Shown piece by piece: positions 3,197 through 64,000 of a stretch of DNA of 64,000 bases. Below the pieces are notes generated by a model. It searched no databases. It was not told where the DNA came from and was given only the letters and a program-made list of their open reading frames with translations. Source of the DNA: Rhizophagus irregularis (lineage: Eukaryota); contig NC_089431.1 of NCBI RefSeq assembly GCF_026210795.1, positions 1,922,001 through 1,986,000 of the forward strand. The letters are read 5' to 3'. The stretch's first letter is position 1. Every line of letters starts with the position of its first letter. A program made the translations under genes and the position numbers.

Positions 3197-6100
3197 TTAT
3201 TTGGTATTAACATGATAAGTATTCGAATTTTTAATAAAACTATTTAATAATTCTTGCATATCTTTTATTTGTTGTTTAAATTCATCTCTCATTTGTTGCT
3301 TAAGTTCTTCAAATGATTTATTTTCATTAATTGGTTCTGGAATTTTTAATAAATTTCTTAATCGATTACTAATAAATGGAGGTGAATTAAATTCAGTTCG
3401 ATTATTATCAATTGCATTAATTAATTTATAAACCTTATTAACAGGTATATCATAATGACTAAAAATAATTAAATAAGATATAATTAGAAAAATTAGAGAT
3501 ATTAAACGTTTAAAATAAATATACTGTACTTACATCCAATCTGGAAACCATTTTTTATTACATCTTTGATAAGGCAACATGTAAAATAATTCAATTTCCA
3601 TAATAATCTTTTTTAAAAATTATAATAAAGTCAGATATATATTAAAATAAAAATATTTAATATTTATTTATTACCTTTGCCTTTTGAAGTAAAAATTCTT
3701 CATTCTTATCATAATTTTCGATCGCCACATTAAGCAATCCAATAAACAAATTCATAAGGTAAATTACCGTAAAAAATGTAAATAAGACTAAAAAAAATGC
3801 CATCGAAGGAGGAGTTTGATGAGAAGTCCATGGTGATAAAGAATCAGAGTTACCTATATATATATATATATATTTAAATTAATAATTAATTTTTGATTAA
3901 AAGTAATTATATAATTATATAAATTATTACCTATAAGAAGTAAATACATAGCTAAAAGTGAAGTTGGAAATAAACTAAACATATTTGTATTTGAATTAGG
4001 AGATTGAATTAATGTAGTTCCATCCGGATTAATAGAATTATCGTCATCATTTTTATTTGGTTTTAAAAGAATGAAAAATGCATGAGCAAATCCAGATATA
4101 ATAAGAAATAAGACTATTAAAAATGGAAAGACCTTTTTAGCAACCCCAATCATTAAAACAAAATAAATTCCAAATGATTCAAATACTCGAAAAAATAATA
4201 AAAATTTAATATTTAGTAATAAATTAGAAAATGCTATAATCCAAAGTGGTGGTTTTCCATAGATAAGCCAATATATTGATGTTATAATAGATAAAAAATA
4301 CGCCCCTACATCTATTAATAATAAAAAGATTAAATATAATAATGTACCGTATATATATACAAAATATTTGTATATCAATAACTTACCAAATAAGTTCCAT
4401 AAATCAGTAAAATAAAATTTTGGATTCCATAAACATTGTCTAATCTCAAAAGTTAAATGTATAAAACCAAGTAAAATTGAAATTATAAAAAGTATATTAT
4501 TATTATCTTGTTCTAATGTAGAAGCTAATGCAAAACAAAGAAAAAAAATAGTATAAATTAACCAAATTAAATAATAAATTTTTTCAAAAATTTTCCATTT
4601 AAAATCTATAATAGCAGCAAAATTCCACCATTTATAAAAATTATTGGTATCTATATTATAAAAAAGAATAGGTTTTGGTTTATATAAAATTTCATTCCAA
4701 TTATTATAATTATTATCTTGATATTTACAAATTTGAGGAAAAGGAATAATAAAACTAATAATTTCTTCCTTAATTTTTAAATGATGAGTTAAACTTTTAT
4801 AAAATGATATTAACCTTTTAATATAACTATTATTTGATGGAATGGATTTTTCAATAGAAATATTATTTGAATATGCATGAAGGGAAGTATTTGTTGAATT
4901 TTTGATAGATAAACAAATAGGAATAGATGTATATATAATATATTTTGTTACTAAATGAGAATAATGATCACATAATTTAGGTAAATATAAACTAATAAGT
5001 GCCATGTAACTGTAATCTGCTGAATTCTTTTTAATTAATTCAATAATTTTATCAAAGATTAATTGAATAATATGAATAATAAAATCGTTTTTTTCATTAA
5101 TTACTACTTTTAATATTTCTGATCCAAATTTTAAAAATTCAATTGGATCATTTATAATATATAAAATTAATGCCTTATATTCTTCATCTTTATCTTTTCT
5201 ATTTTCAATCATTCTAAATATATTAATAAAATTTGGTGATGGTAATGAAGTTTGTAAATCATTAAATTCATCATTTAACATTTTTTGATAATCACGTGAA
5301 CTCCAATATTTATTATTCCAAAATATCGAAGTTTTAATGAATCTTCAACTGTATAAATAAAGATTCCTTGTTTAGTAATTAATGCCAAATCCTGATTATT
5401 CAATAATCTATATGAATATATGTCATCATATTTAAAATAAATTAAAGAATAATTATTCTGATTTTTTTCCAATTTATCATTATTTTGAGAATTTTTAATT
5501 CCAATAAGTTTAACTAAATTAGAAGTTTTTCTTTCAATAATAAATTGAAATAGTTCCCCACCTAATTGAACCATATGATTTTCTGGAAATTTATCATTAT
5601 TCTTATTATTATTGATATCTTTAAGCATATCTTGTATAGTTTTGAAAATTGGCAAAGTATAAATGTTATTATGATAGGTAATGTTTAACATTTGTTGAAA
5701 TATATTTTTATTCAATCCATCCGTAATCCAAATATTATTTTCAATAACAGAAATTTTTTTGTTTGATTTAGTTATAATAATATTTTGAGAGTTGCCAAAA
5801 CTATCACTAATATCAATCGCATCAGAAGTATGAAAAGGATCTAGAAATTTGTAAAAGTTTCATTATTGCAGTATGTCCTAATGATTAATCCTTCAGAATC
5901 ATCTTCTAAAGTTACAAATTCTATTGGAATGCCGTCTACGAATAAAAAAAAAAAGCAAATAAAATTATTATCAGATATTAAAATAATTACTAAAGTAATA
6001 CTAACCATATCTTGAAATCCACATTCCAGTTTTCATTGAAAATATTACAACTTCTGTACTAATATTTAATGCTAATAATGTTTGATTTTTATTTATTACT

Positions 6101-7000: not shown

Positions 7001-9480
7001 TGTCACGTAAATAAAATTTTTATTCAATAAAATTTACGATAAAAAAAAGTTCTTTTTTATTGGAGTCATTTATAATACTTCGCATGATCACTCCGGGAAC
7101 GATATTTATAAAATTTGTGAAACATGATAACAATGAATAATATAACAATGCGTCGAAATCGTCAAATTTATATCGTCCTTTCATTTTGAGAACTTTCATG
7201 TTTAAATTAAATAAATACTTGTCAAAAAAATCCATTACCGATGGGATAAAGACACATATTAACGTAAGTGATTATACATTTTTTGATCAATGTAATCGAT
7301 GTATCTAAATTTTTATATATGTGCATACGATTTAGTCGTTTAGATCAAGGATTCAATACACTTTTTTTTTTATTTTAAACTAGGAAAGAAAACCAAAAAA
7401 GTGAACGTTTCATGATTTTTGGATCATTCAATCAGATTGCTTGTTGTTCAGTGAAGATTAACTTTGGATGCTTTTTTTAAAAAATTTTACTGCTTTAATA
7501 ATAATCACGGCGGGACGGATTCATCTCGGCGAATGCATATTCTAATTGCTTATAAACCTTGAGTTTGTAGTTAAGAAAGTTACTGAGTTACAAAATTAAC
7601 AAATTAAGTATCTTACAATAAAGAATTAGCAATAAATATATGCTTATTTAATACAAGCGCCAAATATTTCAAGTCATAATATGAGCCTCACTAATATGCT
7701 ATTAATGCTATTCATAGTTTATTAAATACAAATAGATTAAATAGATTCCATTCTGCTTTTACAAATTACATAAATACCGAATTTCTGCTACAGGGACTTT
7801 CTGTAGTATCAAAAATTCACTCCCTGGAGTCGTTAATTCATTATGAGAATATTATATTTATATCTTGGAACAAAAAACTTCAGGCAAAAATATTATTATT
7901 AATTATATTATAATTTATCGCACATTTTGTCATACAGTATCACGCGATTCTTGAATAATAGAATTGAGGACCTCATAATATACCATAATTATCACATTTT
8001 TTGGAAATGGCACATTACATAAACTGTTAGCAGATAATATTATTAGGAAATAACTTTGTACATATGTGAGATGATTTATTTAGCGTATTCAATAACATAT
8101 TTACGATCTGTTTCTAAAAACTTTTTAATTAGTAAATCTTTTCAACTTCTTTACATTTCTCTCTTCCCAAATTCCTGAAAAAAAAAATACTCACGTGATC
8201 AACAAATATAGCCACTTAATATTAATCTTTAGATATGCTTCATGCTAAATCAAACATGAGACACAATCAATTATCAAATCACTACTTCGCACCCTTGTTG
8301 CTTATTTATGATATGATTCCAAACTTTTAATTTCGTATATTAAAGACCAAATTAACGATTTATCTCGAGTCACATGGAAACAGCGTAACGATAATTTCAA
8401 AGCCTGGTAAGGATTACAAACGATCCAAAATACATTATAAAAGAAATTTCGAGCATTTACCTACACACGATCTCACGAAGAGATCATATTAACATTTTTG
8501 TTCCGCCTTATCATAAACACAACCCCCGTATTGATCCGTCTGGCATCAAATTTTTTACATTCAGGATCATGGTCTTCACATAGAGATGAACTTTTATTTG
8601 AACAAATAGATTTATTTGATATATTTCGGTTTGATTCTATTTTTTAAATTGTATAATAATCATTTAGTTACGTAATTAGTTTTTTTTATTTCTCTTTTTT
8701 TTTCTTTTTTTTGGTGCAGACACTTGGGTACTGGCGTACCTTCCTGTCGTTTTTTTTCCTTTTTTTTTTACCACTAGAGTGAAGTTGTCTCTTAGGCGAC
8801 TTGTTTTACAGTTTATTTTTGTACTACTTTTGATTCTATTATACAGTTTCTTTGTAATCTTTACTGGAACTTTTTTTACTCTGAGAAATAAAAATAAAAA
8901 ATAAAACATTAGATATGCTTCAAAATAATTTTTAATAATTTAGATATTCATTGTATAAATGATAAAGAGAAAACAGCCACAAGGATTGTTTGAATATAAT
9001 GTTATGCCATTTGGATTGAATTTGAGTAACTAATTTATAAAAGAAAAACACAAAATTAATCCATAATTAATTGCTTTTTTCAATCAACTTTTTGTTTTGG
9101 ATTTAAAAAAAAATTTTTTTTTTTATTTGACCTTATAAACAAGTAATGTAGAACAAATAATTAAATTGGTTATACAAGACTAAAATATTTATTTTGGATG
9201 AATTTAGGATTATGAAAATTACATAAGGATGATCGTCCAATATGTGAAATTAGACTAAATGTGTTAATATCATTTTAAACAAAAATAACAAAAATACAAT
9301 TCAACCATATAAATGGAACAAAAGAATTACCTAATCATCAATTATCATAACAATCATCATAAATTACATCATTGCATATCGAAAAATTACAAATCACAAA
9401 TAAGTTAACAATCGATTATAAAGTCCTGTATATTTTTCAAATTTTTTTTTGATTTTTATACATAAAAAAGTTTGAAAAAG

Positions 9481-10621
9481 ATGAGAATAGAAAGGTGGAC
9501 TTTAGAAGTTCTAGTTAACGAAATACCTCTTCAGGAATATGTAATTTCTGATTCAGTACTTGGAGTAAATATAATTAATTAATTATTAGATTTCTCCCTT
9601 TTTTTATCATATTCACGATTGATTTTTTTTCCTTATATTAAATAGGCCAGTGCATCTAACGCATTGAAATCATATGTGGTCGAAGGAGATCGAAAGAAAT
9701 TTTGGTATAATATTCAAAAAATTATACTTGACTACAATGAATCATTAACTTTTTTATTTATTTATTTATTTTAGCGACTCGGCTACTTTTGTTGCAGTTC
9801 CAGCACCTGGAACACATTATAGCATAGTAGTTTCTCCGAGCACAAGTGAAATCGCACCCAAAATTTATGTAGATGGTATAAATGACGGCTATTATGTAAA
9901 CAGTAGTACTTCGTCATATGGCATCGTTAAGGGTTTTTATAATGGAAATAAAACAATGAGATATGATTTTATTTTCGATAAAACAGAATGGATTGAAACG
10001 GATATTCCACAAAGAACTAAATATGGTGGACTTGGTGCAATATCTGTTTATTTCTATAAAATTATAAATAAGTATAAATCATCAAGAAATTATAATTCAG
10101 AAAAAGCATTTGAAAAGGTAAAGATTCCGGAAACGAAGAAATGTTTTGACGTGGGTCTTACCACAAAATTTTCCGAAGGCATAGAATATTATGGTTATGG
10201 TTCAATAAATTCGATAATAAGAGAAAATGAACCATTAGCTGTACTTCACATTAATTATCGTTTAGCTGATTGGCTTATTCCGATGGCTACTAATACGAGT
10301 TATACGGCCTCTGCTGTTTACCGAACAAATACACAAAATTCCTGTGCTTCTGCTTCTACATCTACCTCATCTACATCTACCCCATCTACATCTACCCCAT
10401 CTACATCTACTACTGCTACTTCGTCTGCTCCTGCGTCTACCTCTTCTTCTGCTGCTACTAATATAGACATTAAAAATGAAGTTAATAATTTTGAAAACGA
10501 TACTGAAAATAAACCTTTAATTACTCAATCTGTCAAAAAGAGGAAACGAAGATACCAAGAAATGATCATAATATTGGATTCGGATGAGGAGTGCACACAT
10601 GAAGTGGTGGAGTTAGATTAA
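9481..10621 (+). CDS. Fungal hypothetical protein (DUF7918-like N-domain) with Ser/Thr linker, NLS and C-terminal SIM-like motifs; 3 exons
   Basis: ATG 9481 (MRIERWTLEVLVNEIPLQEY). Two GT-AG introns splice in frame into ORF 9956..10621. Motifs IYVDG, LGAISVYFY, PLAVLHINYR, KKRKRR, IIILDSDEE. Confidence 0.8.
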
Positions 10622-12371
10622 TATGACAAATGTTTTATTTTTTCAATAATATAGTTATCTAAATATTTAATGTTCTAGAGATAGTAATTTGTTCCTGTTG
10701 TATTAAAAAATGTTACGTGATACCCCTATAAATAGTAGCTAGCCTATATATATAAATGCACTTTATTAGCTAGCATTCAAAAATAAATGTATAATAAAAA
10801 AAAAAATTCATAAAATTCAAAACTCATTCCCATTTTCTTCAATTTTTCATATAACAGATTTTTATTAATTCTAGTGAACAAAAGACCGTTTCAGAATATG
10901 TACTGTAATTCAGTTCTTTGAAGTAAATACTGTATAATAAGATTGGCTTAATAAAATAAGCTAGAGTTGAGATCCGTGTATCCATGTATTCGTGGTATAT
11001 ACAGAGCGACAAGGATCTTGCTTTGGGAAGAACAAACAAGAGAAAGCAAGAGAAAGAGATTTTGATTGGGGAAAAAGATGCTACAAATCATACAATGAAT
11101 CCATAATTTGATAGATAAGTGCCATCACCAGCTGGCCCGATGGTTATGTCAGAATTACAAGATCATTTTGCTACCTAAATTCGAAATGTCACATATGGTG
11201 CTCAAGAATAAAAGAAAAATCCAATCAAGGACAGCATGCTAACCTAGTCACATTTCAGATTTTGAATGTTTCTTTTGTACAAGTTAAGAGAGTACAAGTA
11301 TTGCAAGGTCATCAAGTGCACCGAGGAGTACACTTCTAAGACGTATGGGCATTGCGAACAAATCAATGACAAACTGGGTGGAGATGGATCAGGATGTGAA
11401 CGGGCAAGAAACATCTTACTCAAATTGTTAACGGAGGGTCAGGTTTTGGCCTACTTTGGGACATAAACCTGTAGGGATGCGATATGAATGATGCAGATAA
11501 TGCATAAATAATATAATATCTATCTATAGGCTTTATAATTTATTTTTTATTATCAAGTAATTTATATAATACATAAAATTTTAAGGCATTTTGTTTAAAA
11601 CTGATCCTTGTTCATTGTCTTCCTATATACAATTATTAGAGTTCCGCCTGATCTAAAATTCAAAATCCATTATCCAAATCACTAAAAAGATAAAAGGAAT
11701 ATTAGTACGTTCCCAAAAAAAGAACCTCTTTTTCAACAGAGGCGGAAAAAATATTAAAAAAGACAAAGGTTTAAACCATTTTATAATAAAAAAATAGATT
11801 TTATATTTATTATTAATCATTTAGATATTAAAACAGATGAAAACTAAACCGAGAAAAGTAATTTAATTGTTTCTATTGTTTTTCAATTGTGAATGGCCAA
11901 AAAAAACTATCCGTGGATACTATTCGTTAGAATACACGGATAACTAAAAGGCATATCGGCGGATTTGCGTAATCATATTAATCATATTATAGAAATGATT
12001 TGTTCGGCTGACATGCACAAAGTGCACATGTGCACATTAGTGTTTAAATGTGCACAGTTGTACAACAAAAAATGTGCACAAATTATTACTAAAAATAGAT
12101 AAATTATATATAAAAAAAGCAACTTTACATAATGATTTGTTATGATTTCTTAATTTAGTAATAAATTTATCAACTTGTGCACATGACTTTTGGTTCAGAT
12201 CTTACACACTGCTGACATGTTGATTGCGCAAATCGTTTAAAAGGGAGTTCATGTTTTTGTATGACAAACATTTTTTCGAAGTTTAAATTAACTTGTTTGC
12301 ACACTAATTCTTCGACTGTTTTGTTGTTTTTTTTTTGTTGAATATAATTCCAAAGTATCAAATTTTATTGA

Positions 12372-15099
12372 ATGAACGAAAATCATCGTGTCCACTTTAG
12401 ACCTACGAGAAGAAATAGGTAACTGAAAAATATGAATTGATTATTTTCTTTATATCATGTATGAAATTTATTCGAATTTTATAGTTATCAACTCAATGTC
12501 GAGGAAGCAATAGCCAATCTTAAACTATTTATTACTCAGGAACGGGAGATTGGAGACGTCTTTCAGGAATATCAGCGACAGAATATTGACGTTGATGTTC
12601 ACATAATTGCAGGCGATAAATGGAACCAAAAACTGTTTAAAGTTCACAAATTGATTCTGAAGGAACGAAGTGATTATTTTAAAGTAGCACTATCCGATCA
12701 ATGGGTGCGAAAAGATCCAACCGGAATCATTATCTTTCGAAAAGAGAATATATCACCGGAAATATTTGTTTTGCTCCTTGAGTAAGGCACATGATATTAA
12801 TAGTTTGTTAATAGTTTCTGATTATTTTAATACAGTATTTGGTGACCATTTTGTTGATTTGCAGATACATTTATACCGGTAAGGTTTCGGTGCCACTTTG
12901 CGATACAGACGTTGATTTTGTGGATTTGATTGGAGCGGCCGATGAGATTTTGCTTCCACAATTGGTTATTTCCTTAGAAGGATACCTTGTTGACATGTAT
13001 TTATCAGAGTCCACAAAATTACTTGAAGTCGAAACATGGTTGCAATCAAACATCGTTCGCTTAGTTTCACTGAAAAAAGGTGGGTACATCGTATTTTATA
13101 AAATGGGTGTCATATTTGTCTCATTTTCATGTATACTTTGTTTCAGATATTCCGGAAGGTTTGAGCTTAATTCGATCACGATTTGAAAAACATGTTCGAA
13201 TAACAGGTCATGATTCCATCCAAGAGATCACCGACAATAAAAATGCAAGCTCTGTAGTATGTTCGGAAATATTTTTTTTTTGTGGCAATCAAATCTCATG
13301 ACAAATTAAATAAAAACGCTTTTTTATTTATACTTTCTATAGGAATCCACGATATACGTTAATACCCTTTTAAAAGTTTTCAACAAATATCATCACATGG
13401 TTCAAACCATATTCGAAAACGAAGCCGGATTTGTAGCATCATTTAATGAAGTCCGTTTTTAATTCATTTACAATTAACATGTTTTAGGTCCTTTTATATA
13501 AATTTACATCATTTTTTCGTTTTCTTAAGTTTTGCCGTGAATTTATCAATCGCAACGTACCATTTTTTTCATCACCATCACAATTGCTTGTGGAATTTTG
13601 TGACATATTTCTTCGCCGGAATGAAAAAAGTTCAATGGTCGATAATAAGGATGTTATTAACAATATTGTAAGAGATCAAGAACAATATTCAGCTTTTAAA
13701 TAACGTTTATACAGCAAATTTAATTAAAAGTTTTTTTTTTATTTAAGATAAACATATTTAAATATCTCCATGACAAAGATTTTTTCAAAAAATTTTATTC
13801 CCAACTGTTAGCTGAACGTCTTTTGACTCAAAGCTCTTTCTCCGAGGAGGCGGAATTGAACATGATTTCCAGATTAGAGGTTTGGTCAGCATATTGGTTA
13901 ATCTTAATATCTGAATTGCTTTAATATTGCGTTCCTTATATAGAATGAATGTGGCCTCGAATATACATCCAAAATGCGACTTTTGTTCCATAATATTGGA
14001 TTAAGTAAGGATCTTAATAATCAGTTCAAGAAACATTTGAATACTGATGATGCAGAACAAGGTGGTGCAATAATTTTGTTTGTTTAACTAAATAATCATT
14101 CTATCAATTAACTGTAAACTGTTGTTGTGTCTTTTCAATAGTTGAATTTTACATTTTAGATATGGAAGCCTTGCCAATGTCACCAGTTGTTTCCAACCTG
14201 ATCATTCCAGATGAAGTGTGTTAAAATCGTGAATTTTCTTGTCTTAGTATCTATTTGGTTGCCTTATGATATTTTATTTTCACAGATAGAGAAAACTTTT
14301 CAACGTTTCAAGAAATTTTATAAAGACAAATATCCTTCCCGTAGACCAAAATTGCTACACCATTTATCAAAAGGTGAACTAAAAGCAAATTACCTAAAGA
14401 CACCAAAAGTATTCCAGGTGAAATAAATTGGCTTTTTTTTTTAGAAATCATTATATTAGTAAGTAGAACTAAATAAAATTTTCCCATAGGCATCAACATA
14501 TCAGATGAGCATTCTTCTACAGTACAATAATAACACTTCTTATACCCGTGAAGAATTGCTTCAGAATACGGGTATAAACCAAGATTTATTGGATCAACAA
14601 CTAAAATATTTAACTGATTTAAAACTTTTACTTCTTGATAAGACAACGTACGACTTGAATTTTGAGTTCAATAGGTAGGTTGGTTCATGAACATCTTTGA
14701 AGTTACCGCATGATCTAAATTTAATGTCACGTTTTCATTTCCCACAGTGAAGCATTTCAAATCACATTAAAAGATCCTGAAGAAGCAATGCAATTTCATT
14801 TTGAACTCCAACGTAGACTTGTGGAGGAAAGGAAATTCCAAATTGAGGTTTGTATATTTTTTTTTTTGATATTTCATTACTATTATCTTACGTGATATAA
14901 TAATTCATTGTAGAGCACAGTTTTTCAAACTATACGTCATCATAGAGGAATTAGACATGATTCATTAGTATGTGAAGTTGTCATGAAACTTGAACATAAA
15001 TTCCTTCCAGCACCCTCTATGATTAAAAAAGCAATTAATAGTCTCATAGAAAGAGAACATATAGAGTATGTAGATAAGGGGTATAGAAAAGTACTTTAA
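12372..15099 (+). CDS. BTB/POZ domain fused in frame to the C-terminal half of a Cullin-1-like protein; ~12 exons
   Basis: BTB motifs ([46 protein letters not shown]) splice in frame into cullin motifs ([70 protein letters not shown]). Stop TAA at 15097-15099. Confidence 0.88.
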
Positions 15100-16654
15100 T
15101 TTAGAGTTAGTTACATAATTTTTTTTTTGTTTTTGTGACAATGAAATCTTTTTTGTGTAAAATCTTAATTTTAATTGATTTAAAACTTTAATATACTGTT
15201 ATACTGTATATGTTTTATACAAATTTTTTGTTTTGCTTTTTTTTCTCTTCAGAATTAAAGAATTACAAAGAAGTTATGTAAACTTCATTTACAAAGTTTT
15301 AAGAACTATGTATATTTCTTTTAATAGATAATAATAAAGATAAAAATAAAAATTAATAAAAGAATAAAGATTAATTTATAAAATCCAGTTCCAGCGGAAA
15401 AATATTAAAAAAAGACCATTTTATAATAAAAAAATAAAAATTTATATTATTTAGCCATGGCAATCATCAAAAGCTGTGCAAAATCTGTATAGAAATGGAA
15501 CGGAATATTGTCTTAGCTGTACTCCTATTAACATTAGGTGGATCACCAAGTAAAGAAACAACTTTGATACACAAGACAACCAATATGATGTTCTTTTATG
15601 TTTTAATTGAATGAATAATATTGTTATGTGTCAAAATCGTTACGACGTTACGTGATATTAATTACACCAAATTTATATCGTCATTTTCATTTTGAGAAAT
15701 GTCACGTTTAAATTAAATAATTGATCGATGTAATCGATGTACAGTATCTAAATTTTACTAGTCATTTAGATCAAGGATTCAATATACTTTTTTTGTATTT
15801 TAGAGTTCAAACTTGAATGAATTGTAGGAAAAAAACCAAAAAATTGAACGTCCAATGATTTTGGATCTTTTAATCAGATTGCTTGTTGTTGTTCAAATAA
15901 AATTAACGTTCAGATGCTTTGTTTAAAACATTTTACCGTTTTAATAATCACGGCGCTCTCGGCAAATGCATCTTCTAATTGCTTATATATTCATTGTAAA
16001 CCTTGCTTATTTAATACAAGCGTCAAATATTTCAAGCAATAATATAAGCCTCACTAATACGCTATTAATGCTATTCATTAAATAGATTCCATTCCCACTT
16101 TTACAAGTTACATAAATACCAAATTTCTGCTTAAGAAGAATATTATTTTTATATCTTGGAACAAAATCTTCAGGCAAAAATATTACTAATTATATTATAA
16201 TTTAACGACCGAGTTATAGATTCATTAAAAATCACGATAGAATTTATACATATTGATATGTGAGATGATTTATTTAGCGTGCCAATTCAATAACTGATAA
16301 CATTTCTAAAAACTTGTTAATTAGTAAATTTAGGATATATAAGGATGATTTTATACCTGACAAATACTGTGACACGTAACAAAATTGTAAAACTCCTCTG
16401 TTAAATATGTGAATTAGACTAAATGTGTAATAGACTAAATGTGAGAAATAAAAGTCATAATGTCATTATTATAATTAGAACAAAAGAATTACTTAAATAT
16501 CATAAAATCCATAACAATCACATAAATTACATCATTGTATTGGTTAAATGTTCAAAATTTTTTTGACAATCATAACAATCAGTCGACTATAAAATACAGT
16601 ATATTTCTCATTTTCATCTTACTTTAGACTTTTATACATAAAAGTTTGAAAAAG

Positions 16655-17847
16655 ATGAGAATAAGAAGGTGGACTTTAGAAGTTTTAGTGAACGAAATAC
16701 CTCTCCGAGAATATGTAATTTCTGATTCAGTACTTGGAGTAAATATAATTAATTATTAGATTTTTTTTTTTTAGTATCATATGTATCATATTCAAATAAA
16801 TGATTTCTTTTTCTTATAATAAATAGGCCAGTGCATCTAACGTATTGAAATCATATGTGTTCGAAGGAAATCGAAAGAAATTTTGGTATAAAAATTCAAA
16901 ATTTATACTTGACTAAATAAATCATAACTTTTTATTTATTTATTTATTTATTTTAGCGACTCGGCTACTTTTATTGCAGTTCCAGGACCTGGAACATATT
17001 ATAGTATAGTGGTTTCTCCAAGCATAAGTAAAATCGCACCCAAAATTTATGTAGATGGTAGAAATGACGATTCTTATGTAAAAAGTAGTGATTCATCATT
17101 TAGCATCGTTAAAGGTTTCCATAATAGAAATAGAACTATAAGATATGATTTCATTTTCGACAAAACAGAATGGATTGAAACGGATATTCCACAAAGAACT
17201 AAATATGGTGGACTTGGTATAATATCTGTTTATTTCTATAAAGTCAAAGAAAGGTATGAATCATCAAGAAATTATAGTTCGTATTTGAGCTATGATCTAA
17301 ACAAAGATTTTAAAGGAGTAAAGATTCCAGAAACTAAGAAATATTTTGACGTGGCTCTTACCACAAAATTTCCGAAGGCATAGAATGTTACGGTGATCGC
17401 TCATCATATAAAATAGTAAGAGATGATGAACCATTGGCTGTACTTCACATTAATTATCGTTTAGCTGATTGGCTCATTCCGATAGTTGCTAATATTTATA
17501 CACAAAATTCCTGTGCTTCTTCTTCTACATCTACCTCATCTACGTCTTCCCCATCTACATCTACTACTTCTACTTCGTCTGCCCTGGCGTCTACCTCTTC
17601 TTCTGCTGCTACTAATGTAGACATTAAAAATGTCAAAAAGAGGAAACGAAGATACCAAGAAATGATCGTCTCTTCTGCTGCTACTAATGTAGACATTAAA
17701 AATGAAGTTAATAATTTTGAAAGCGATACTGAAAATAAACCTTTAATTACTCAATCTATCAAAAAGAGAAAACGAAGATACCAAGAAATTATCGTAATAT
17801 TGGATTCGGATGAGGAGTGCACACATGAAGCGGTGGAGTTAGATTGA
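16655..17847 (+). pseudogene. Paralog of 9481..10621 with 1-bp frameshift
   Basis: Same exon structure as the first copy. ACAAAATTTCCG replaces ACAAAATTTTCCG at ~17370, splitting it into ORFs 17009..17383 and 17434..17847. A sequencing error in the T-run cannot be excluded. Confidence 0.75.
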
Positions 17848-18109
17848 ATATGACAAAACTCATCGAAAATATAGAAATAGTTGTATTAAAATGTTACATG
17901 ATAACCTTATTAATAGCTAGCCTAAATATCTCAATGCATTTTATTAGCTAGGATTCAAATATAAATGTATATTCAACCCCGCTAAAAAAACCAAGTTTTC
18001 ATATACAATTTTTAATCTAAAAAAATCGATAGATTGACTTAATTTTAAAGACATACTGTAATTCAGTTCTTTGAAGTAATATAGTAAGATTTGCTTAATA
18101 AAAATGAGC

Positions 18110-18704
18110 TAGAGTTTAGATCCATGTATTCGTGGATATGTTTCCGTGATAAAATACAATATCCGTAATCCCTATAAAAAAATTGAACAGGTAATCCATA
18201 TCCATATAATACGGATGATTCGGATAATGCAGATAACGCGGATAACTGTGTAATATCTAGGGTTTTATAATTTTATTTTTTTATTCTCAAATAATTTATA
18301 ATAATATATAATATTTTAAGACATTTTGTTTCGCCGTTCATGGTCTTCCTATATTAGATCTAATTCAAATCCAAATCACTAAAAAAGTAAAAACAAAGGA
18401 ATATTAGCACGTTTCTAAAAAAAAACCTCTTTTCAGCTTACAATTCCAGAGCCCAGTATTCAAGAGACCGAAGTCTAGGTCCAGGAGGAGGGATAAAGGA
18501 AAAGGACGAAAGAGAAGGAAAGGGCAGAAAAAATATTAAAAAAGATAGGGTTATCCCATTTTTATAACAAAAGAAATAAATTATCATTATTTTTTTTAAT
18601 AAAAAAAGGACTATCCGTGGATACTACCCGAATAATAAAATGAGTATCCGCAATCCGTTATCCGTATGAATACACAGATAATGGATACATGGATCCAAAT
18701 TCTA
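18110..18704. mobile_element. hAT-type MITE
   Basis: Termini TAGAGTTTAGATCCATGTAT / ATACATGGATCCAAATTCTA with 8-bp TSD AAATGAGC/AAATGAAC. An older counterpart starts at 10962. Confidence 0.8.
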
Positions 18705-18899
18705 AAATGAACGAATATGTGCATTTCACAAATTAATTTTTTATATAATAATTTTGCCAATCATGTTTTTTTCTCCAAATTTCTTTAAAAAGAAAGATTA
18801 AAAAGGAGTATTTTCGAAAGTTTAAATAAAGGAGTGCATTTGTTTGTACATTAATTCTTCGGCTGTTTCGTGGTTTTTTTTGTTGACCAATTCTGGAGG

Positions 18900-20008
18900 A
18901 TCAAATTTTTATCCACTTTAAACTTACAAAACAGGTAACTTATCAGTTTCCGATTGATTATTTTCTTTATATCATGTATGAAATTTATTCGAATTTTATA
19001 GCTATCGACTCAATGATTTTCTAGGAGCGATAAATGAAACCAAATACTTTTTAAAGTTCACAAATTGGATCGAAGTGATTATTTTAAAATAGCACTATCC
19101 GATCAATGGGTGCGAAAGATCCGAACGGAATCATTATCTTTCGAAAAGAGAATATATTACCGGAATTGTTGATTTGCAGCTACATTTATACCAGCAAGGT
19201 CTCGGTGCCACTTTGCAATACAATCTTGTTGACATGTATAATCAGAGTCCACAAAATCACTTGAAGTTAAAACATGGTTGCAATCAAACATCATTCGCTT
19301 AGTTTCACTAAAAAAGGTGGGCGCATCATATTTTTAAAAATGGTTTCATATTTGTCTCTTGATTTTTTATTCTCATGTATTCTTTGTTTCAGATATTCCG
19401 GAAGGTTTGAGCTTAGTTCGATCACAATTTGAAGAACATGTTTGAATAGCAGGTCGTGATTCCGTCTAAGATATCATCAAAAATAAAAATGCATTTTTTT
19501 TTGACGATCAAATCTCATGATAAATTGAATAAAATGCTTTTTATTTATACATCCACGATATATGTTAATGCCTTTTTAAGAGTTTTCAACAATATCTCAT
19601 AGTATAAATCATATTCGAAATCGAAAACGAAGCGGGTTTTGTAGCATCATCTAATAAAGTCCGTTATTAATCCATTAGGTCCTTTATATAAATTTACATC
19701 AATTTACGTTTCTTAAGTTTGCGATAATTTATTAACTGCAACGAACTTTGCACAGACCCATTTTTGTCATCATCACAATTGCTTGTGGAAATTTGTGACA
19801 TTCGCCAGAATGAAAAAAGTTCAGTTGTCGATAACAAAGATGTTATTAACAATATCAGATATTGTAAGTGATCAAGGACAATATTCAGCTTTTAAATAAC
19901 GTTTGGACAGCAAATTTAATTAAAAGTTTTTTTATTTAAGATAAACATATTCAAATATCTCCATAACAAAGATTTTTCAAAAAATTTTATTCCCAACTGT
20001 TAGCTGAA
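18900..20008 (+). pseudogene. Truncated, deleted copy of the BTB-cullin gene
   Basis: Nucleotide match to 12370-13818 with many deletions. Homology stops abruptly after CTGTTAGCTGAAC. Confidence 0.88.
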
Positions 20009-20489
20009 CCCCAATGATTATGAGCGCTGGTACCCCAAACTTATCTTAGACAGTGTTGTTAATAATAGTACAGCCCGGAGGGTGATCTTCAGCTCGAAAG
20101 ATTTTTTGCTGAGCTACTCCTGTGCGACAAAAATATGCGGATCACCAGACAGGTCTGTGCGACATATTAATTCACATATAATCGAAAAGAAATTATGTAT
20201 ACTAACCTTTAGTCTATTTTTTTCCCGAACAAACATGAGAAAATGTGAAAGAGTGCTTAGTTCAACACGGGGCCTACCACATAAGTAGATAGTGATGACA
20301 AAAGCATATGTTATGAAGGGCTGAGAACTTCGCAATTTCGAGATCGCCGTTAGACCAACCTTGAGTCTTTCTGGTAGATCTCGTTTACATGTGCCCTGCC
20401 CAGCGAAAACAATCCATTTTAAGTCTTATTATTTCCTGTTAATCTTTTTTTGAATCTACCACCAGCAACAGTAATAATGTTATAAGCCT

Positions 20490-31998: not shown

Positions 31999-32850
31999 TT
32001 AATCACAATTGTTTCCTTCTGTACGTAGAAAATCAGCATAGTAGTTACTAATATGATTACCATAAAAACCAGCGTTTGAATCTCCGATGTAAAAGGTTTG
32101 ACACGTTTCAGGTGCCGAATAATAAAAGCTATTCTGCTGATATTGCTGTTGAGCCAAAAATGTATCAAGACCATCCGCATGACCATATTCATATGGTAAA
32201 GGGTTCATTTCATTTACTTGTTCTTGAGTAATGTTAGTACGACTTGTCTCTCTTACTTGACAGTTGATTTGTTTATAACTGCAGGGAACTCCATTCCCTT
32301 CTTGGTTTTCCGTAATAAAGTTTACACGACCTGTCTCTCTTACTTGACAGTTGATTTGTTTATAACTGCACGAAACTCCATTCCCTTCTTGGTTTCCCGT
32401 AATAATGTTAATACCACAACTTTCGTCTATTTGAAGGTTGGGTGATTTATATTTCTTATTACAATAAACGAAGTTGATACGAGGTTTTCTATGGCGTTTT
32501 TCGATATGATTTGGATAAATTTTGCTATGTTGTTCTTTAAGTAATTTAGTTAAATCCACATAGCATTTTTTTTCCTCCATGGTAGCTTCTCTCCATATGT
32601 GAGCAGCAACACGGGAGAGATTCTTTCCATCATAAGGTAAGGATTTCTTTACAACATGATTTAGACAACGTCGAAAAACCATAAAGTTGTTCATCGGTTT
32701 TGGTTGGCGGTTTGTTCTTCTAACTGTAGCTTGCGTTTGTAACTTACTTATCATATCACTTACTATATCTTCCGACAAAGGGAACAATATTTTTTTATCT
32801 ATCATTCTAATAATTTGTATGTCAACATTAGATAAAGAGTTGTCCTTCAT
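31999..32850 (-). CDS. MATA/SOX-type HMG-box transcription factor
   Basis: PKPMNNFMVFRR..NLSRVAAHIWREATMEEKKCYVDL..EQHSKIYPN. ATG at 32850; probable 5' UTR intron upstream. Confidence 0.9.
   Translation of the reverse strand: MKDNSLSNVDIQIIRMIDKKILFPLSEDIVSDMISKLQTQATVRRTNRQPKPMNNFMVFRRCLNHVVKKSLPYDGKNLSRVAAHIWREATMEEKKCYVDLTKLLKEQHSKIYPNHIEKRHRKPRINFVYCNKKYKSPNLQIDESCGINIITGNQEGNGVSCSYKQINCQVRETGRVNFITENQEGNGVPCSYKQINCQVRETSRTNITQEQVNEMNPLPYEYGHADGLDTFLAQQQYQQNSFYYSAPETCQTFYIGDSNAGFYGNHISNYYADFLRTEGNNCD
32241..32403. repeat. 87-bp in-frame tandem duplication within HMG gene
   Basis: Two copies of IT.NQEGNGV.CSYKQINCQVRET.R. Confidence 0.95.
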
Positions 32851-34989
32851 GGTAAATAACGTACAAGACACGATTGATAAACTATATGATTATAAAGAAA
32901 TAGGGAAAACAAATGGAATTAGCGAAAGGAAATAAAAAAAAATAATTAATCTATATCATTAATATATAGAGTTTACTTACTACTATTATTTATTTCAAGA
33001 AAAAAAATTTTTAACAGCAATCGTGAAGTAAAATGAAAAAGAAAGTTGAGGGCTTTTATAGATCTTTTGTCAACGTTGGAAAAATAAAAAAAAAAAATTT
33101 TTTTAATTTGTTAACTTAATAATTTATTTGCCTCTTTATGTTTTAAATTACAATCACATTATCCTATCAATCAATCATCACCAAAGTACGGTATATATTA
33201 TATATATATAAAAAAAAAAAGATTACAAATAGAGAAATAAGAAATAAAGAAATTTTTAATAAAAATAAATTTTAATGTAACACGTCTAAAGATAGTAAAT
33301 TGGGCTTTTTAAAAAAAAGGAAATTTTTCTTTCATAACTATCGACCTATATCTTCGCATTCTTAAAATTTCCTTTCGAGAGGAATGAAAGTCACACTAGC
33401 AAGCCACAAATGGCTTGAGATCCGAGATATGACGGTAAATAATTCCGTAGTGCAGGAGGATAAATTAATTCCGAGATTTCGATTGAGGATAAATTAATTC
33501 CGAAATTAACATTAATTTCGTTTATCTCATCGGTATTATGTATTAACACCGATGGATTTTTTTTTTGTCATCTACGAAATCCATCGGTGTATACGTCATA
33601 CACAACGAGTTAAGTCCGTTATTCCATGGATATCTAATAAAAACCACATATACATCGATGCTTCTCTCCCTTCGCTCCCTTCGGGTGGGCCTCAAGACAA
33701 CAATGAATATTTTAATTATTCATTGATATCCATAGTGTAATTCCGTTAGACCGTTACAGGGGGGAATAAATTCAATTGAAACTCACTCTGCCCACGTTTT
33801 CTCCTGTCACACATTTCACAACCTATTAGTTTTTTTTAAAAAAAAATAAAATACCAATCCCCTTATTAATTCAATAACAATGTGTTACAAAAAAAAAAAG
33901 TTTCTTTTACCAATAAAAAAAAAAATTTTTTTTCCTTAAAACTGGTACAGCCAAAGCAATTAATTAATTAATTAATTAATTAATTATCAAAAAAAAAAAA
34001 AAAAAAAAGATAAACAAATAAATAAAAATAAGTTTAGGGTTTAGTGACGGAAAAAAAAAATTTTTAGATTTAGATTATAAGAAAAAAAAATAAATAAATA
34101 AATAAAAAAAAACTAAAAATAAAAAAAAATCAACTTTTTTTTTTTTGGAAACATTTTTTTTCGAAAAAGAAAAGAAAGAAAGAAAAGAAAGAGATAAAGA
34201 AATCAAACGCATGCAGTGTAGAATTGATCTTATGACTCGAAATTTTATATTTCTAGATAAACAATAATTTCTAGAATTCTTAAGATAAGATAATTGGAAA
34301 TGTTTGTTTATCATTTCGAAAAAAAAAAAAGTTATCTTAAGTTTATGATTTTATTGATAGAGTCAAATGATCAATTTAATCATATCTAATCGACTCGTTA
34401 TAATTTCTTTTGCATATGAATTATTAATGGGAATTTTGTTTTTTTTGACAAAATATGACGCAAATAAAACAAAAACATTGTCGATCATTGAAACCACATG
34501 ATACAAATAAAGTTTTTCTTTTGGAATAATATCATCTGATTCACCAAACTGTAAGATATCATTCATTTAATCATAAATTAGTTGCTTAATTTGTTATTAT
34601 TTTATTCCTTAATATCGTTAAATCAGAGACAATAGAAAGAAAATCAAGGTTTGATCTGATAAGATATGTTTTTTTTATCTTTTCATGTAAGCCACACATT
34701 ATTAATGTAAGTCACCTGAATTAACTTGGGATTCATGTTTGCGGCGTTCGCCACAATTGCCACCTGCCACACTCGATAAATGATTCGAAATGACATATGT
34801 AATATTTTGGTTTATATATAATGTACTAAAAAATCAATTCTTAAAATTCTTAAATTTTTTCATTCATTAATATATCATATACCGTATATATATACACAAT
34901 TAATTATTTTCTTTTATTAAATAAATGATCTTTTAAATTTGAGATTCAAATATAAATATTATATAATGGTACCGACAGGTACCGTAGTC

Positions 34990-63065: not shown

Positions 63066-63773
63066 TTATCTTGAATCGCCATACCCATTTTGAATAGTTT
63101 TAGCAAAAGATCTAGATTTAACTTGTTGTCTTTTCAACATAGATTCAGCAACGCTTCCTACTATATATAAAAGAGTAGTTAAACCGATCATAATTATAAA
63201 TAACGTATATTTTTGTAAGAATCCATCAGATGCAGTTTGTGCTCCACCATCATTGCTTGCAGCAACAGTACTACTAGTTCCACTAACAGAATCAAGACTA
63301 ACATCATCTAATCTGGCCCAATTACTGAAATTCTTTACAACCAAAGTTTTAACTGTTACACTACCAGTTGCTCCTTGAGCATTCCAACTCAATGTAATTG
63401 GGAAATTTTTTACATTACTATTTTTATGAGTAATAGTAGTAGATGGTACTCCACATTCTTTAAATTTTACATAGTCAGGTAAATTTTCAAATAAACCTAC
63501 TCTCTTATTATCCTTATCTAAAACGTAAACCAAAAGTCCTTCAACGCCATTGCCAGGTCCATTAATTGTTAAATCAAATTTTCCTTGAGATTTCATGTTC
63601 GTAGTAATCGTATAACCCCCCGGACTTTTTAACGAGCTAGCTCCATGTCCCTTGGTAGACATGTCTTCTACATTACAAGTATCAGCTCCATCTGGTAATG
63701 CTGACACATAGAATGGCATTAATATGAACAAAAAAAGGAAAAATGAAAATAATTTCTCATGTAATTTACTCAT
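63066..63773 (-). CDS. Reeler-domain single-pass membrane protein
   Basis: Signal peptide, ALPDGA..C, GLLVYV.....RVGLF, C..TITHKNS..K..LSWNA, VTVKTLVV..F..W, and a C-terminal TM helix. Confidence 0.85.
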   Translation of the reverse strand: MSKLHEKLFSFFLFLFILMPFYVSALPDGADTCNVEDMSTKGHGASSLKSPGGYTITTNMKSQGKFDLTINGPGNGVEGLLVYVLDKDNKRVGLFENLPDYVKFKECGVPSTTITHKNSNVKNFPITLSWNAQGATGSVTVKTLVVKNFSNWARLDDVSLDSVSGTSSTVAASNDGGAQTASDGFLQKYTLFIIMIGLTTLLYIVGSVAESMLKRQQVKSRSFAKTIQNGYGDSR

Positions 63774-64000
63774 TTTTTTTTTAATTTAATTTTAGTGTTT
63801 AGTTTTATGTTAAAATAAAAAAAAAATTAAGTGGAATCGCCGGCGATTCGAATAAGTTCGTTTTTTAAATAAAAAAAAAAATATATATATAATAATAATA
63901 TAAAATAAATAAATTTGTAACCTTCAATTATTTTATTTATTATTTATTTCTTTTTATTTAATCAAAATGCCAAAGACGATAAAAGAAAAAATTAAAAAAG

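What the first reader, a model, noticed from the sequence alone, without database searches (positions are those of the whole stretch)
12372..15099. Single-chain BTB-cullin fusion gene
Seen: a complete BTB domain splices in frame (..SLKK-D-IPEGL..) onto the C-terminal part of a Cul1-like cullin, and the reading frame stays open across all exons. Known: BTB proteins are separate adaptors that bind the Cul3 N-terminus, and the BTB-fold protein Skp1 binds Cul1. Here the adaptor-binding cullin N-terminal repeats are absent and a covalent BTB sits in their place. Inference: this is a self-contained or decoy cullin-RING scaffold that could dock on Cul3 or dimerise with the expanded BTB family of these fungi.
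Basis: partly seen in the sequence, partly recalled or inferred. Interest (0 to 1): 0.85.

Follow-up and report, generated by a model that had tools for sequence, protein, structure and literature searches.

The report
BTB-tethered pseudo-cullin of mycorrhizal fungi
An expressed gene of arbuscular mycorrhizal fungi joins a BTB adaptor domain to the back two-thirds of Cullin-1; in Rhizophagus the cullin part has lost its NEDD8 activation lysine and its last domain differs strongly between isolates, so it is likely a switched-off ubiquitin-ligase scaffold reused as a bait or recognition module.

Summary
The fusion is real. Thirteen exons give a 613-aa open frame. RNA reads show all 12 introns, including the BTB-cullin one, and two spliced contigs span the whole gene. 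The protein is BTB, then cullin repeat 3 and the C-terminal domain of a Glomeromycota Cul1; repeats 1-2 are gone. The seam lies inside exon 3, about 9 codons before the intron.

The same architecture occurs in R. diaphanus and four Gigasporaceae genera; I found it nowhere else. Its BTB is the best conserved part.

In Rhizophagus the NEDD8 lysine is Arg, only 10 of 29 invariant Cul1 basic residues survive, and the last exon (WHB) carries divergent, reassorting haplotypes (32/73 variable positions versus 47/540 elsewhere). A broken tandem copy beside it shows that the intact frame is selected.

Best reading: a non-neddylatable pseudo-cullin that works through its BTB, CUL7-style, as receptor or bait. 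Binding to Cul3, Rbx1 or itself is untested.

The parts
12372..15099 (+). BTB-cullin fusion gene, 13 exons (12372-12418, 12485-12781, 12865-13079, 13147-13256, 13343-13450, 13530-13667, 13748-13879, 13944-14061, 14142-14215, 14286-14417, 14490-14674, 14748-14847, 14914-15099), 613 aa
12204..15238 (+). Extent covered by spliced contigs (5' ends 12204-12275, 3' ends 15221-15238); true transcript ends not shown
12561..12988 (+). BTB domain, residues 42-156 (exons 2-3); fusion-specific BTB clade, best conserved part of the family
12989..13079 (+). Joint region, residues 157-186: family-specific linker, first BACK-like helix up to N177, then Cul1 repeat-3 helix from about I178 (window ~13052)
13080..13146 (+). 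Intron 3 (GT..AG, 67 nt), spliced in RNA; lies about 9 codons downstream of the seam
13147..14847 (+). Cul1-derived rest of repeat 3, four-helix bundle, alpha/beta domain and WHA (exons 4-12)
14142..14176 (+). Strand equivalent to CUL1 534-546 (an Rbx1-pairing strand, recalled): two residues shorter, W545 replaced by Leu
14749..14760 (+). Residues 520-523 (E, A, F, Q) in place of CUL1 K678, K679, L680, R681, part of the basic canyon (residue numbers recalled)
14914..15099 (+). Exon 13, WHB (Cullin_Nedd8) domain; hypervariable among Rhizophagus sequences, haplotypes reassort against exons 1-12
14935..14937 (+). Codon 560 (CGT, Arg) at the position of the NEDD8 acceptor K720 of CUL1
   Evidence: K720 as acceptor from bioRxiv 10.1101/2025.03.25.645352 passages
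18811..20012 (+). Broken tandem copy of exons 1-7 with introns: no start codon, 14 frameshifting indels among 20 coding indels, 6 stops

Best explanation
The gene encodes a BTB domain joined to the C-terminal two-thirds of a Cul1 copy that in Rhizophagus lacks the NEDD8 acceptor lysine, so it is likely a catalytically disabled pseudo-cullin that acts through its BTB. Shown: the transcript, the domain order, the Cul1 origin, the loss of K720 and of most invariant basic residues, the conserved BTB, the hypervariable last exon. Inferred: (1) the cullin part still folds, because hydrophobic positions are kept; (2) it cannot be neddylated at the usual site or recruit CDC34/CSN through the basic canyon; (3) the BTB tethers it to a working CUL3 ligase, directly or by pairing with other BTB adaptors; (4) the cullin body places the WHB at a distance, and the variable WHB surface binds a changing partner, such as a cullin-targeting protein of a parasite or a non-self protein of another fungal individual, and would bring it within reach of ubiquitination. 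This parallels CUL7, an inert cullin that serves as receptor for neddylated CUL1. Most Gigasporaceae copies keep the lysine and may be an earlier, still activatable stage.
For: Position 720 is K in 29 of 29 Cul1 and R in all 7 Rhizophagus sequences compared; R717 (R in 29 of 29) is Q. At near-invariant Cul1 columns the window protein keeps 48 of 70 hydrophobic residues identical (65 of 70 stay hydrophobic) but 10 of 29 basic ones, 5 of which turn acidic. Mean identity Rhizophagus vs Gigasporaceae fusions: BTB 0.59, repeat 3 0.25, 4HB 0.43, alpha/beta+WHA 0.44, WHB 0.31. WHB identity is 0.89 among Glomeromycota Cul1 but the lowest region within both fusion groups (0.75 and 0.44). Variable columns among 8 Rhizophagus sequences: 32 of 73 in WHB vs 47 of 540 elsewhere, Fisher p 8e-13, columns treated as independent. 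Reassortment: P0003 differs from the window protein at 4/529 upstream and 21/61 in exon 13, but from P0002 at 30/529 and 3/61. The tandem copy took 14 frameshifts and 6 stops while the gene took none. Precedent: PMC9507964, abstract and Discussion.
Against: No partner of any kind is shown. The phi-x-E Cul3 motif is absent from 9 of 9 fusion BTBs (also from 30 of 30 unfused relatives, 3 with the loop incomplete), and only the first 3-box helix remains. Four of six full-length Gigasporaceae copies keep K720 and most basic residues (20-22 of 26-29), so 'disabled' is not family-wide. The variation is at protein level only, with no dN/dS; the Rhizophagus sequences were not shown to be alleles rather than paralogues, and gene conversion or relaxed constraint could give the same WHB pattern. 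The protein's ids are not in a published spore proteome table that lists a 770-aa cullin, Cul4, DCN1 and NEDD8 (PMC8647823 supplements).
Confidence: 0.45

Rival explanations
1. A built-in inhibitor of the fungus's own cullin ligases: the BTB pairs with BTB adaptors and the dead cullin half soaks up Rbx1 or occupies one arm of a CRL3 dimer, damping a large BTB family.
For: K-to-R at the acceptor is the classic non-neddylatable change (Cul3 K712R, PMC3401178 passages). The fold is kept and the BTB is conserved. CACUL1, a cullin fragment, probably suppresses CUL3-KEAP1 (bioRxiv 10.64898/2026.03.13.711689 passage).
Against: An inhibitor should conserve the surfaces that bind the host machinery. 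Here the basic residues, W545 and W581 and the WHB surface are the parts that changed. It does not explain divergent, reassorting WHB haplotypes.
Confidence: 0.2
2. An active single-chain ligase: the BTB oligomerises or recruits substrates, and the C-terminal domain binds Rbx1 and an E2, without NEDD8 or through another lysine.
For: All C-terminal subdomains are present. Four of six full-length Gigasporaceae copies and the fragment P0179 keep the acceptor lysine and W545.
Against: The Rhizophagus protein lacks K720, R717, K689 and the K678/K679/R681 patch, and has a shortened strand at 534-546. It carries no recognisable substrate-binding domain.
Confidence: 0.15
3. Only the BTB matters; the cullin part is a passenger under relaxed selection in a repeat-rich genome, and the WHB drifts or is patched by gene conversion from paralogues.
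For: The Rhizophagus cullin part sits on a very long branch, 1.57 changes per site. Broken or partial copies exist: the tandem copy, G. rosea P0164 without most of the BTB, G. margarita P0131 without WHB. BTB genes are high-copy accessory genes in this fungus (PMC8647823 passages).
Against: The 430-residue cullin part stays in frame to the same end in 6 of the 7 Rhizophagus sequences compared with the window protein (one is a partial model) and in two fungal orders. Hydrophobic WHB positions are constant across haplotypes that differ at a third of residues. A neutral copy next door decayed quickly.
Confidence: 0.15

Closest known systems
CUL1 / Cdc53 (SCF scaffold)
   Same: Residues ~178-607 are homologous to CUL1 ~317-766 and nest inside Glomeromycota Cul1 (99/95 support).
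   Different: Repeats 1-2 with the Skp1 site are replaced by a BTB. The NEDD8 lysine and many basic residues are lost in Rhizophagus. WHB is the most variable region instead of one of the most conserved.
CUL7 in CRL7-FBXW8 (PMC9507964; abstract and Discussion read)
   Same: An un-neddylated, inactive cullin linked through a BTB-fold protein (SKP1) to an active cullin, acting as substrate receptor. This is the working model for the fusion.
   Different: CUL7 is vertebrate-specific, is blocked by conformation, and uses separate SKP1-FBXW8. Here the BTB-fold is covalent, the block is in the sequence, and coupling to another cullin is not shown. The origin is independent.
CUL3 adaptors of the BTB-BACK type (KLHL3, PMC3616122 passages; BTB-BACK-TLDc proteins of mycorrhizal fungi)
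   Same: The BTB core and first BACK-like helix are homologous to BTB-BACK-TLDc proteins (HHalign 99%, residues 48-159).
   Different: BACK is cut after one helix, phi-x-E is absent, and a cullin stands where the substrate-binding domain would be.
CACUL1 and ANAPC2 (degenerate cullins; bioRxiv 10.64898/2026.03.13.711689 passage)
   Same: Cullin-derived proteins without neddylation.
   Different: They lack the neddylation domain altogether and have no BTB; the fusion keeps a folded WHB.

Membership tests
Cullin family (sequence) | Cullin homology domain plus C-terminal WHB | tested here: met
   Pfam Cullin 285 bits and Cullin_Nedd8 46 bits, both above cut-off; Foldseek best hits are CUL1 chains
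Canonical CRL scaffold (CUL1) | N-terminal repeat 1 with adaptor-binding helices | tested here: not met
   Cullin match starts at profile position 244 of 620 and CUL1 residue 301
Canonical CRL scaffold (CUL1) | NEDD8 acceptor lysine (K720) in its conserved motif | tested here: not met
   Arg in all 7 Rhizophagus sequences compared; Gln in 2 and Lys in 4 of 6 Gigasporaceae copies
Canonical CRL scaffold (CUL1) | Basic canyon for CDC34 and CSN2 acidic tails | tested here: not met
   K678E, K679A, R681Q; 431/432/435 stay basic. Residue numbers of the canyon are recalled; its role is from PMC10873206 and PMC6722667 passages
Canonical CRL scaffold (CUL1) | Rbx1 binding | not testable with these tools
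The alpha/beta+WHA region keeps 24 of 37 invariant positions; W545 and W581 are Leu
CUL3 adaptor (BTB-BACK) | BTB domain | tested here: met
   Pfam BTB 54.5 bits, profile 1-106 of 110
CUL3 adaptor (BTB-BACK) | phi-x-E motif in the alpha3-beta4 loop | tested here: inconclusive
   Absent in 9 of 9 fusions and in 30 of 30 unfused relatives, so it does not discriminate
CUL3 adaptor (BTB-BACK) | Complete 3-box hairpin after the BTB | tested here: not met
   BACK-like match ends at N177; the following helix is cullin-derived. A cullin helix might stand in structurally
CUL3 adaptor (BTB-BACK) | Binds the CUL3 N-terminus | not testable with these tools
Pseudo-cullin receptor (CUL7-like mode) | Un-neddylated cullin coupled to an active cullin-RING module | not testable with these tools
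   Loss of the acceptor lysine is shown; coupling is inferred

The most novel reading that the evidence does not exclude
An 'integrated decoy' built from the cell's own ubiquitin machinery: mycorrhizal fungi fused a dead Cul1 to a CUL3-type adaptor so that parasite or non-self proteins that grab cullins bind the bait and are ubiquitinated, with the WHB exon kept as long-lived alternative haplotypes by balancing selection. It would be a cullin turned into the substrate-recognition arm of another cullin ligase, and a candidate immune or self/non-self locus in these fungi.
Probability: 0.2. Interest if true: 0.9.

Novelty: new variant of a known kind. Interest (0 to 1): 0.68.

Why it matters
Cullin ligases keep adaptor and scaffold on separate chains so that adaptors can be exchanged. 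This family puts a CUL3-type adaptor fold and a CUL1 scaffold on one chain and has kept that in two fungal orders. It also offers a natural series, from copies with the NEDD8 lysine (most Gigasporaceae) to copies without it (Rhizophagus), which makes the path from enzyme to pseudo-enzyme testable. A normally conserved domain turned hypervariable, with reassorting haplotypes, marks a candidate recognition locus in a major plant symbiont whose large BTB repertoire has no known targets.

Tried and rejected
Annotation artefact joining two genes: rejected by junction reads and spanning contigs. Fusion by splicing at intron 3: rejected, as the best switch point is residue 178 (score 57.2 vs 47.9 at residue 181, ungapped anchoring). 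Cul3 origin of the cullin part: rejected. Viral or phage origin: no phage match; viral cullins match only at 11-18% identity. Secreted effector: no hydrophobic N-terminus (best 9-residue hydropathy 1.7 in the first 40 residues); not a formal signal-peptide test. Homodimer prediction for residues 15-190: no answer, no evidence either way. One or two origins: the free cullin tree splits the two fusion groups, but neither monophyly (p-AU 0.244) nor a Cul1 clade excluding the Gigasporaceae fusions (p-AU 0.102) is rejected; no Glomerales Cul1 was in the set. dN/dS gene vs tandem copy was 0.56, on a gap-rich alignment whose introns differ less than synonymous sites, so I give it no weight. DNA-level data for other isolates were not obtained, so dN/dS among alleles is open. 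No whole genome is held. The ESM Atlas did not complete. AlphaFold models were moderate (pLDDT 70.6 and 63.9; BTB poorly modelled in the first), so domain packing was not read from them. The run search listed no holder on record as RNA; the spliced joints are the evidence.

Full report
Observation. Thirteen exons between 12372 and 15099 give 1842 nt and 613 aa without an internal stop; all 12 introns are GT..AG and 64-86 nt long. A poly(A) RNA-seq run shows all 12 joints, with 19 reads from 11 starts over intron 13080-13146. Contigs of 2103 and 2075 nt from two other runs cover exon 1 to the 3' UTR, and a fourth run shows the joints in several pieces. The model equals database protein P0123 of Rhizophagus irregularis, named only as uncharacterised or cullin-domain protein. 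Pfam finds BTB, Cullin (profile 244-618 of 620) and Cullin_Nedd8 on one chain.

Anatomy. The best solved relatives are CUL1 (269 bits), then CUL2 (225) and CUL3 (147), matching CUL1 301-766. With three five-helix repeats in the N-terminal domain (PMC3616122 passage; boundaries recalled), repeats 1-2 are gone and most of repeat 3 remains. Profile comparison with unfused BTB-BACK proteins covers residues 48-159. Scoring residues 165-201 against 23 Cul1 and 21 BTB-BACK sequences puts the best switch at residue 178, inside exon 3, so intron 3 is probably inherited from the cullin parent (inference). Residues 158-172 also resemble Cul1 weakly, so the joint may be a mosaic.

Distribution. Word-seeded searches found the architecture in R. 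irregularis (4 clusters), R. diaphanus, Racocetra persica, Cetraspora pellucida, Dentiscutata heterogama and Gigaspora margarita (several copies), with fragments in G. rosea and D. erythropus. With a BTB profile, 11 of 42 hits scored E below 1e-59 and all 11 carry a cullin; 8 of them were known before, 4 of which built the profile. The next hit was at 3e-18. An HMMER search of 1.84 billion representatives gave 11358 hits; of the best 150, only two already-known fusions have a BTB by my own profile, and 0 of 36 odd-length ones by Pfam. Divergent fusions ranking below 150 would be missed. No copy appeared from R. clarus, Glomus, Funneliformis, Acaulospora, Entrophospora, Ambispora, Paraglomus or Geosiphon, but these searches do not prove absence.

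History. The fusion BTBs form one group against 23 unfused BTBs (100/99; the tool warns of long branches; 7 incomplete rows left out). They share a linker absent from both parents (D158, Y160, E171, W173 invariant in 16 sequences), and 6 cullin columns shared by both groups are absent from 9 Glomeromycota Cul1. The cullin parts nest in Glomeromycota Cul1 (99/95). The Gigasporaceae ones are sister to Gigasporaceae Cul1a (98/94), while Rhizophagus lies apart on a branch of 1.57. Neither alternative is rejected. One origin is the simplest reading; later conversion from resident Cul1, two origins or transfer remain open.

Loss of cullin function in Rhizophagus. K720 is the NEDD8 acceptor and R717 is conserved across cullins (bioRxiv 10.1101/2025.03.25.645352 passages). 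The window has Arg (CGT) at 720 and Gln at 717, plus K472E, K493E, K678E, K679A, R681Q, K689E, W545L and W581L, at positions held in 26-29 of 29 Cul1. Of near-invariant columns it keeps 48/70 hydrophobic but 10/29 basic residues. The basic canyon recruits CDC34 and CSN2 (passages of PMC10873206, PMC3366790, PMC3817463, PMC6722667; its residue numbers are recalled). Gigasporaceae copies are less eroded: K720 is kept in 4 of 6, Gln in 2.

Selection. A tandem duplicate of the block lies about 7 kb downstream. Its copy of exons 1-7 has no start codon, 14 frameshifting indels among 20 coding indels and 6 stops at roughly 10% coding divergence, while the gene has none. The BTB is the best conserved region between orders (0.59). 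The WHB, 0.89 among Cul1, is the least conserved within both fusion groups. Among 8 Rhizophagus sequences 32/73 WHB columns vary against 47/540 elsewhere, the hydrophobic pattern is constant, and exon 13 haplotypes reassort against exons 1-12. This is what balancing selection on a binding surface looks like, but it is protein-level only and allelism is not shown.

Mechanism. I favour a BTB-tethered pseudo-cullin acting as receptor or bait (0.45), by analogy with CUL7, which lacks neddylation and ligase activity and serves as receptor for neddylated CUL1 (PMC9507964, abstract and Discussion). Rivals are an inhibitor of the cell's own ligases (0.2), an active single-chain ligase (0.15, higher for Gigasporaceae) and a relaxed passenger (0.15). 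Against the favoured model: no partner is shown, phi-x-E is absent (though also in unfused relatives), the 3-box is cut, and the gene's ids are not in one spore proteome table (PMC8647823 supplements, 8 files searched, one not searchable).

Novelty. Ten full-text searches found no BTB-cullin fusion; those aimed at it were 17, 21, 29, 46, 49, 77, 85 and 90, seen as listings. PMC10234402 and PMC8647823 were read as passages and do not describe it. Subscription papers on these genomes and bioRxiv supplements were not searchable. Earlier notes of this scan hold nothing like the sequence; one unchecked note describes a fungal BTB fused to a dead USP7, a possible parallel. The parts are known and the pseudo-cullin idea has a precedent, but the covalent BTB-cullin chain and the hypervariable WHB appear undescribed.

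Noticed in passing
window 9239-13820 and 16404-20012: Tandem duplication of about 7 kb that includes a DUF7918-like gene (9749-10621, E 1e-4, below cut-off; copy at 16928-17847) and the fusion gene's 5' half. The broken copy has the 12-nt insertion at the place where other isolates have four extra residues.
   Followed up: partly
window 10960-11466: Fragmented Cas12f1/TnpB-like zinc-ribbon remnant upstream of the gene (Pfam E 8e-4, below cut-off).
   Followed up: no
window 12387-12419: The Rhizophagus-specific N-terminus has an RVxF-type motif at residues 6-9 (PP1 docking, recalled) followed by an RRxS site; constant in the Rhizophagus sequences, absent in Gigasporaceae. Short motifs, may be chance.
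   Followed up: no
window 14062-14141 and 15438-15614: Database models differ from RNA: P0001 has one extra Gly at intron 8, and P0125 and P0128 add a C-terminal exon. Neither is among the joints.
   Followed up: yes
window 15487-15521: A 35-nt stretch matches transcripts that continue elsewhere in three runs (loose ends on both sides); probably a fragment of another expressed gene or repeat.
   Followed up: no
P0007, P0016, P0009, P0024, P0129, P0131, P0163: Gigasporaceae carry two full-length Cul1 paralogues and several fusion paralogues, some lacking the WHB or most of the BTB.
   Followed up: partly
window 32002-32889 (-), 63069-63785 (-), 3857-5344 (-): HMG-box gene, Reeler-domain gene and a weak ion-transport match elsewhere in the window; no sign of a functional link.
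   Followed up: no
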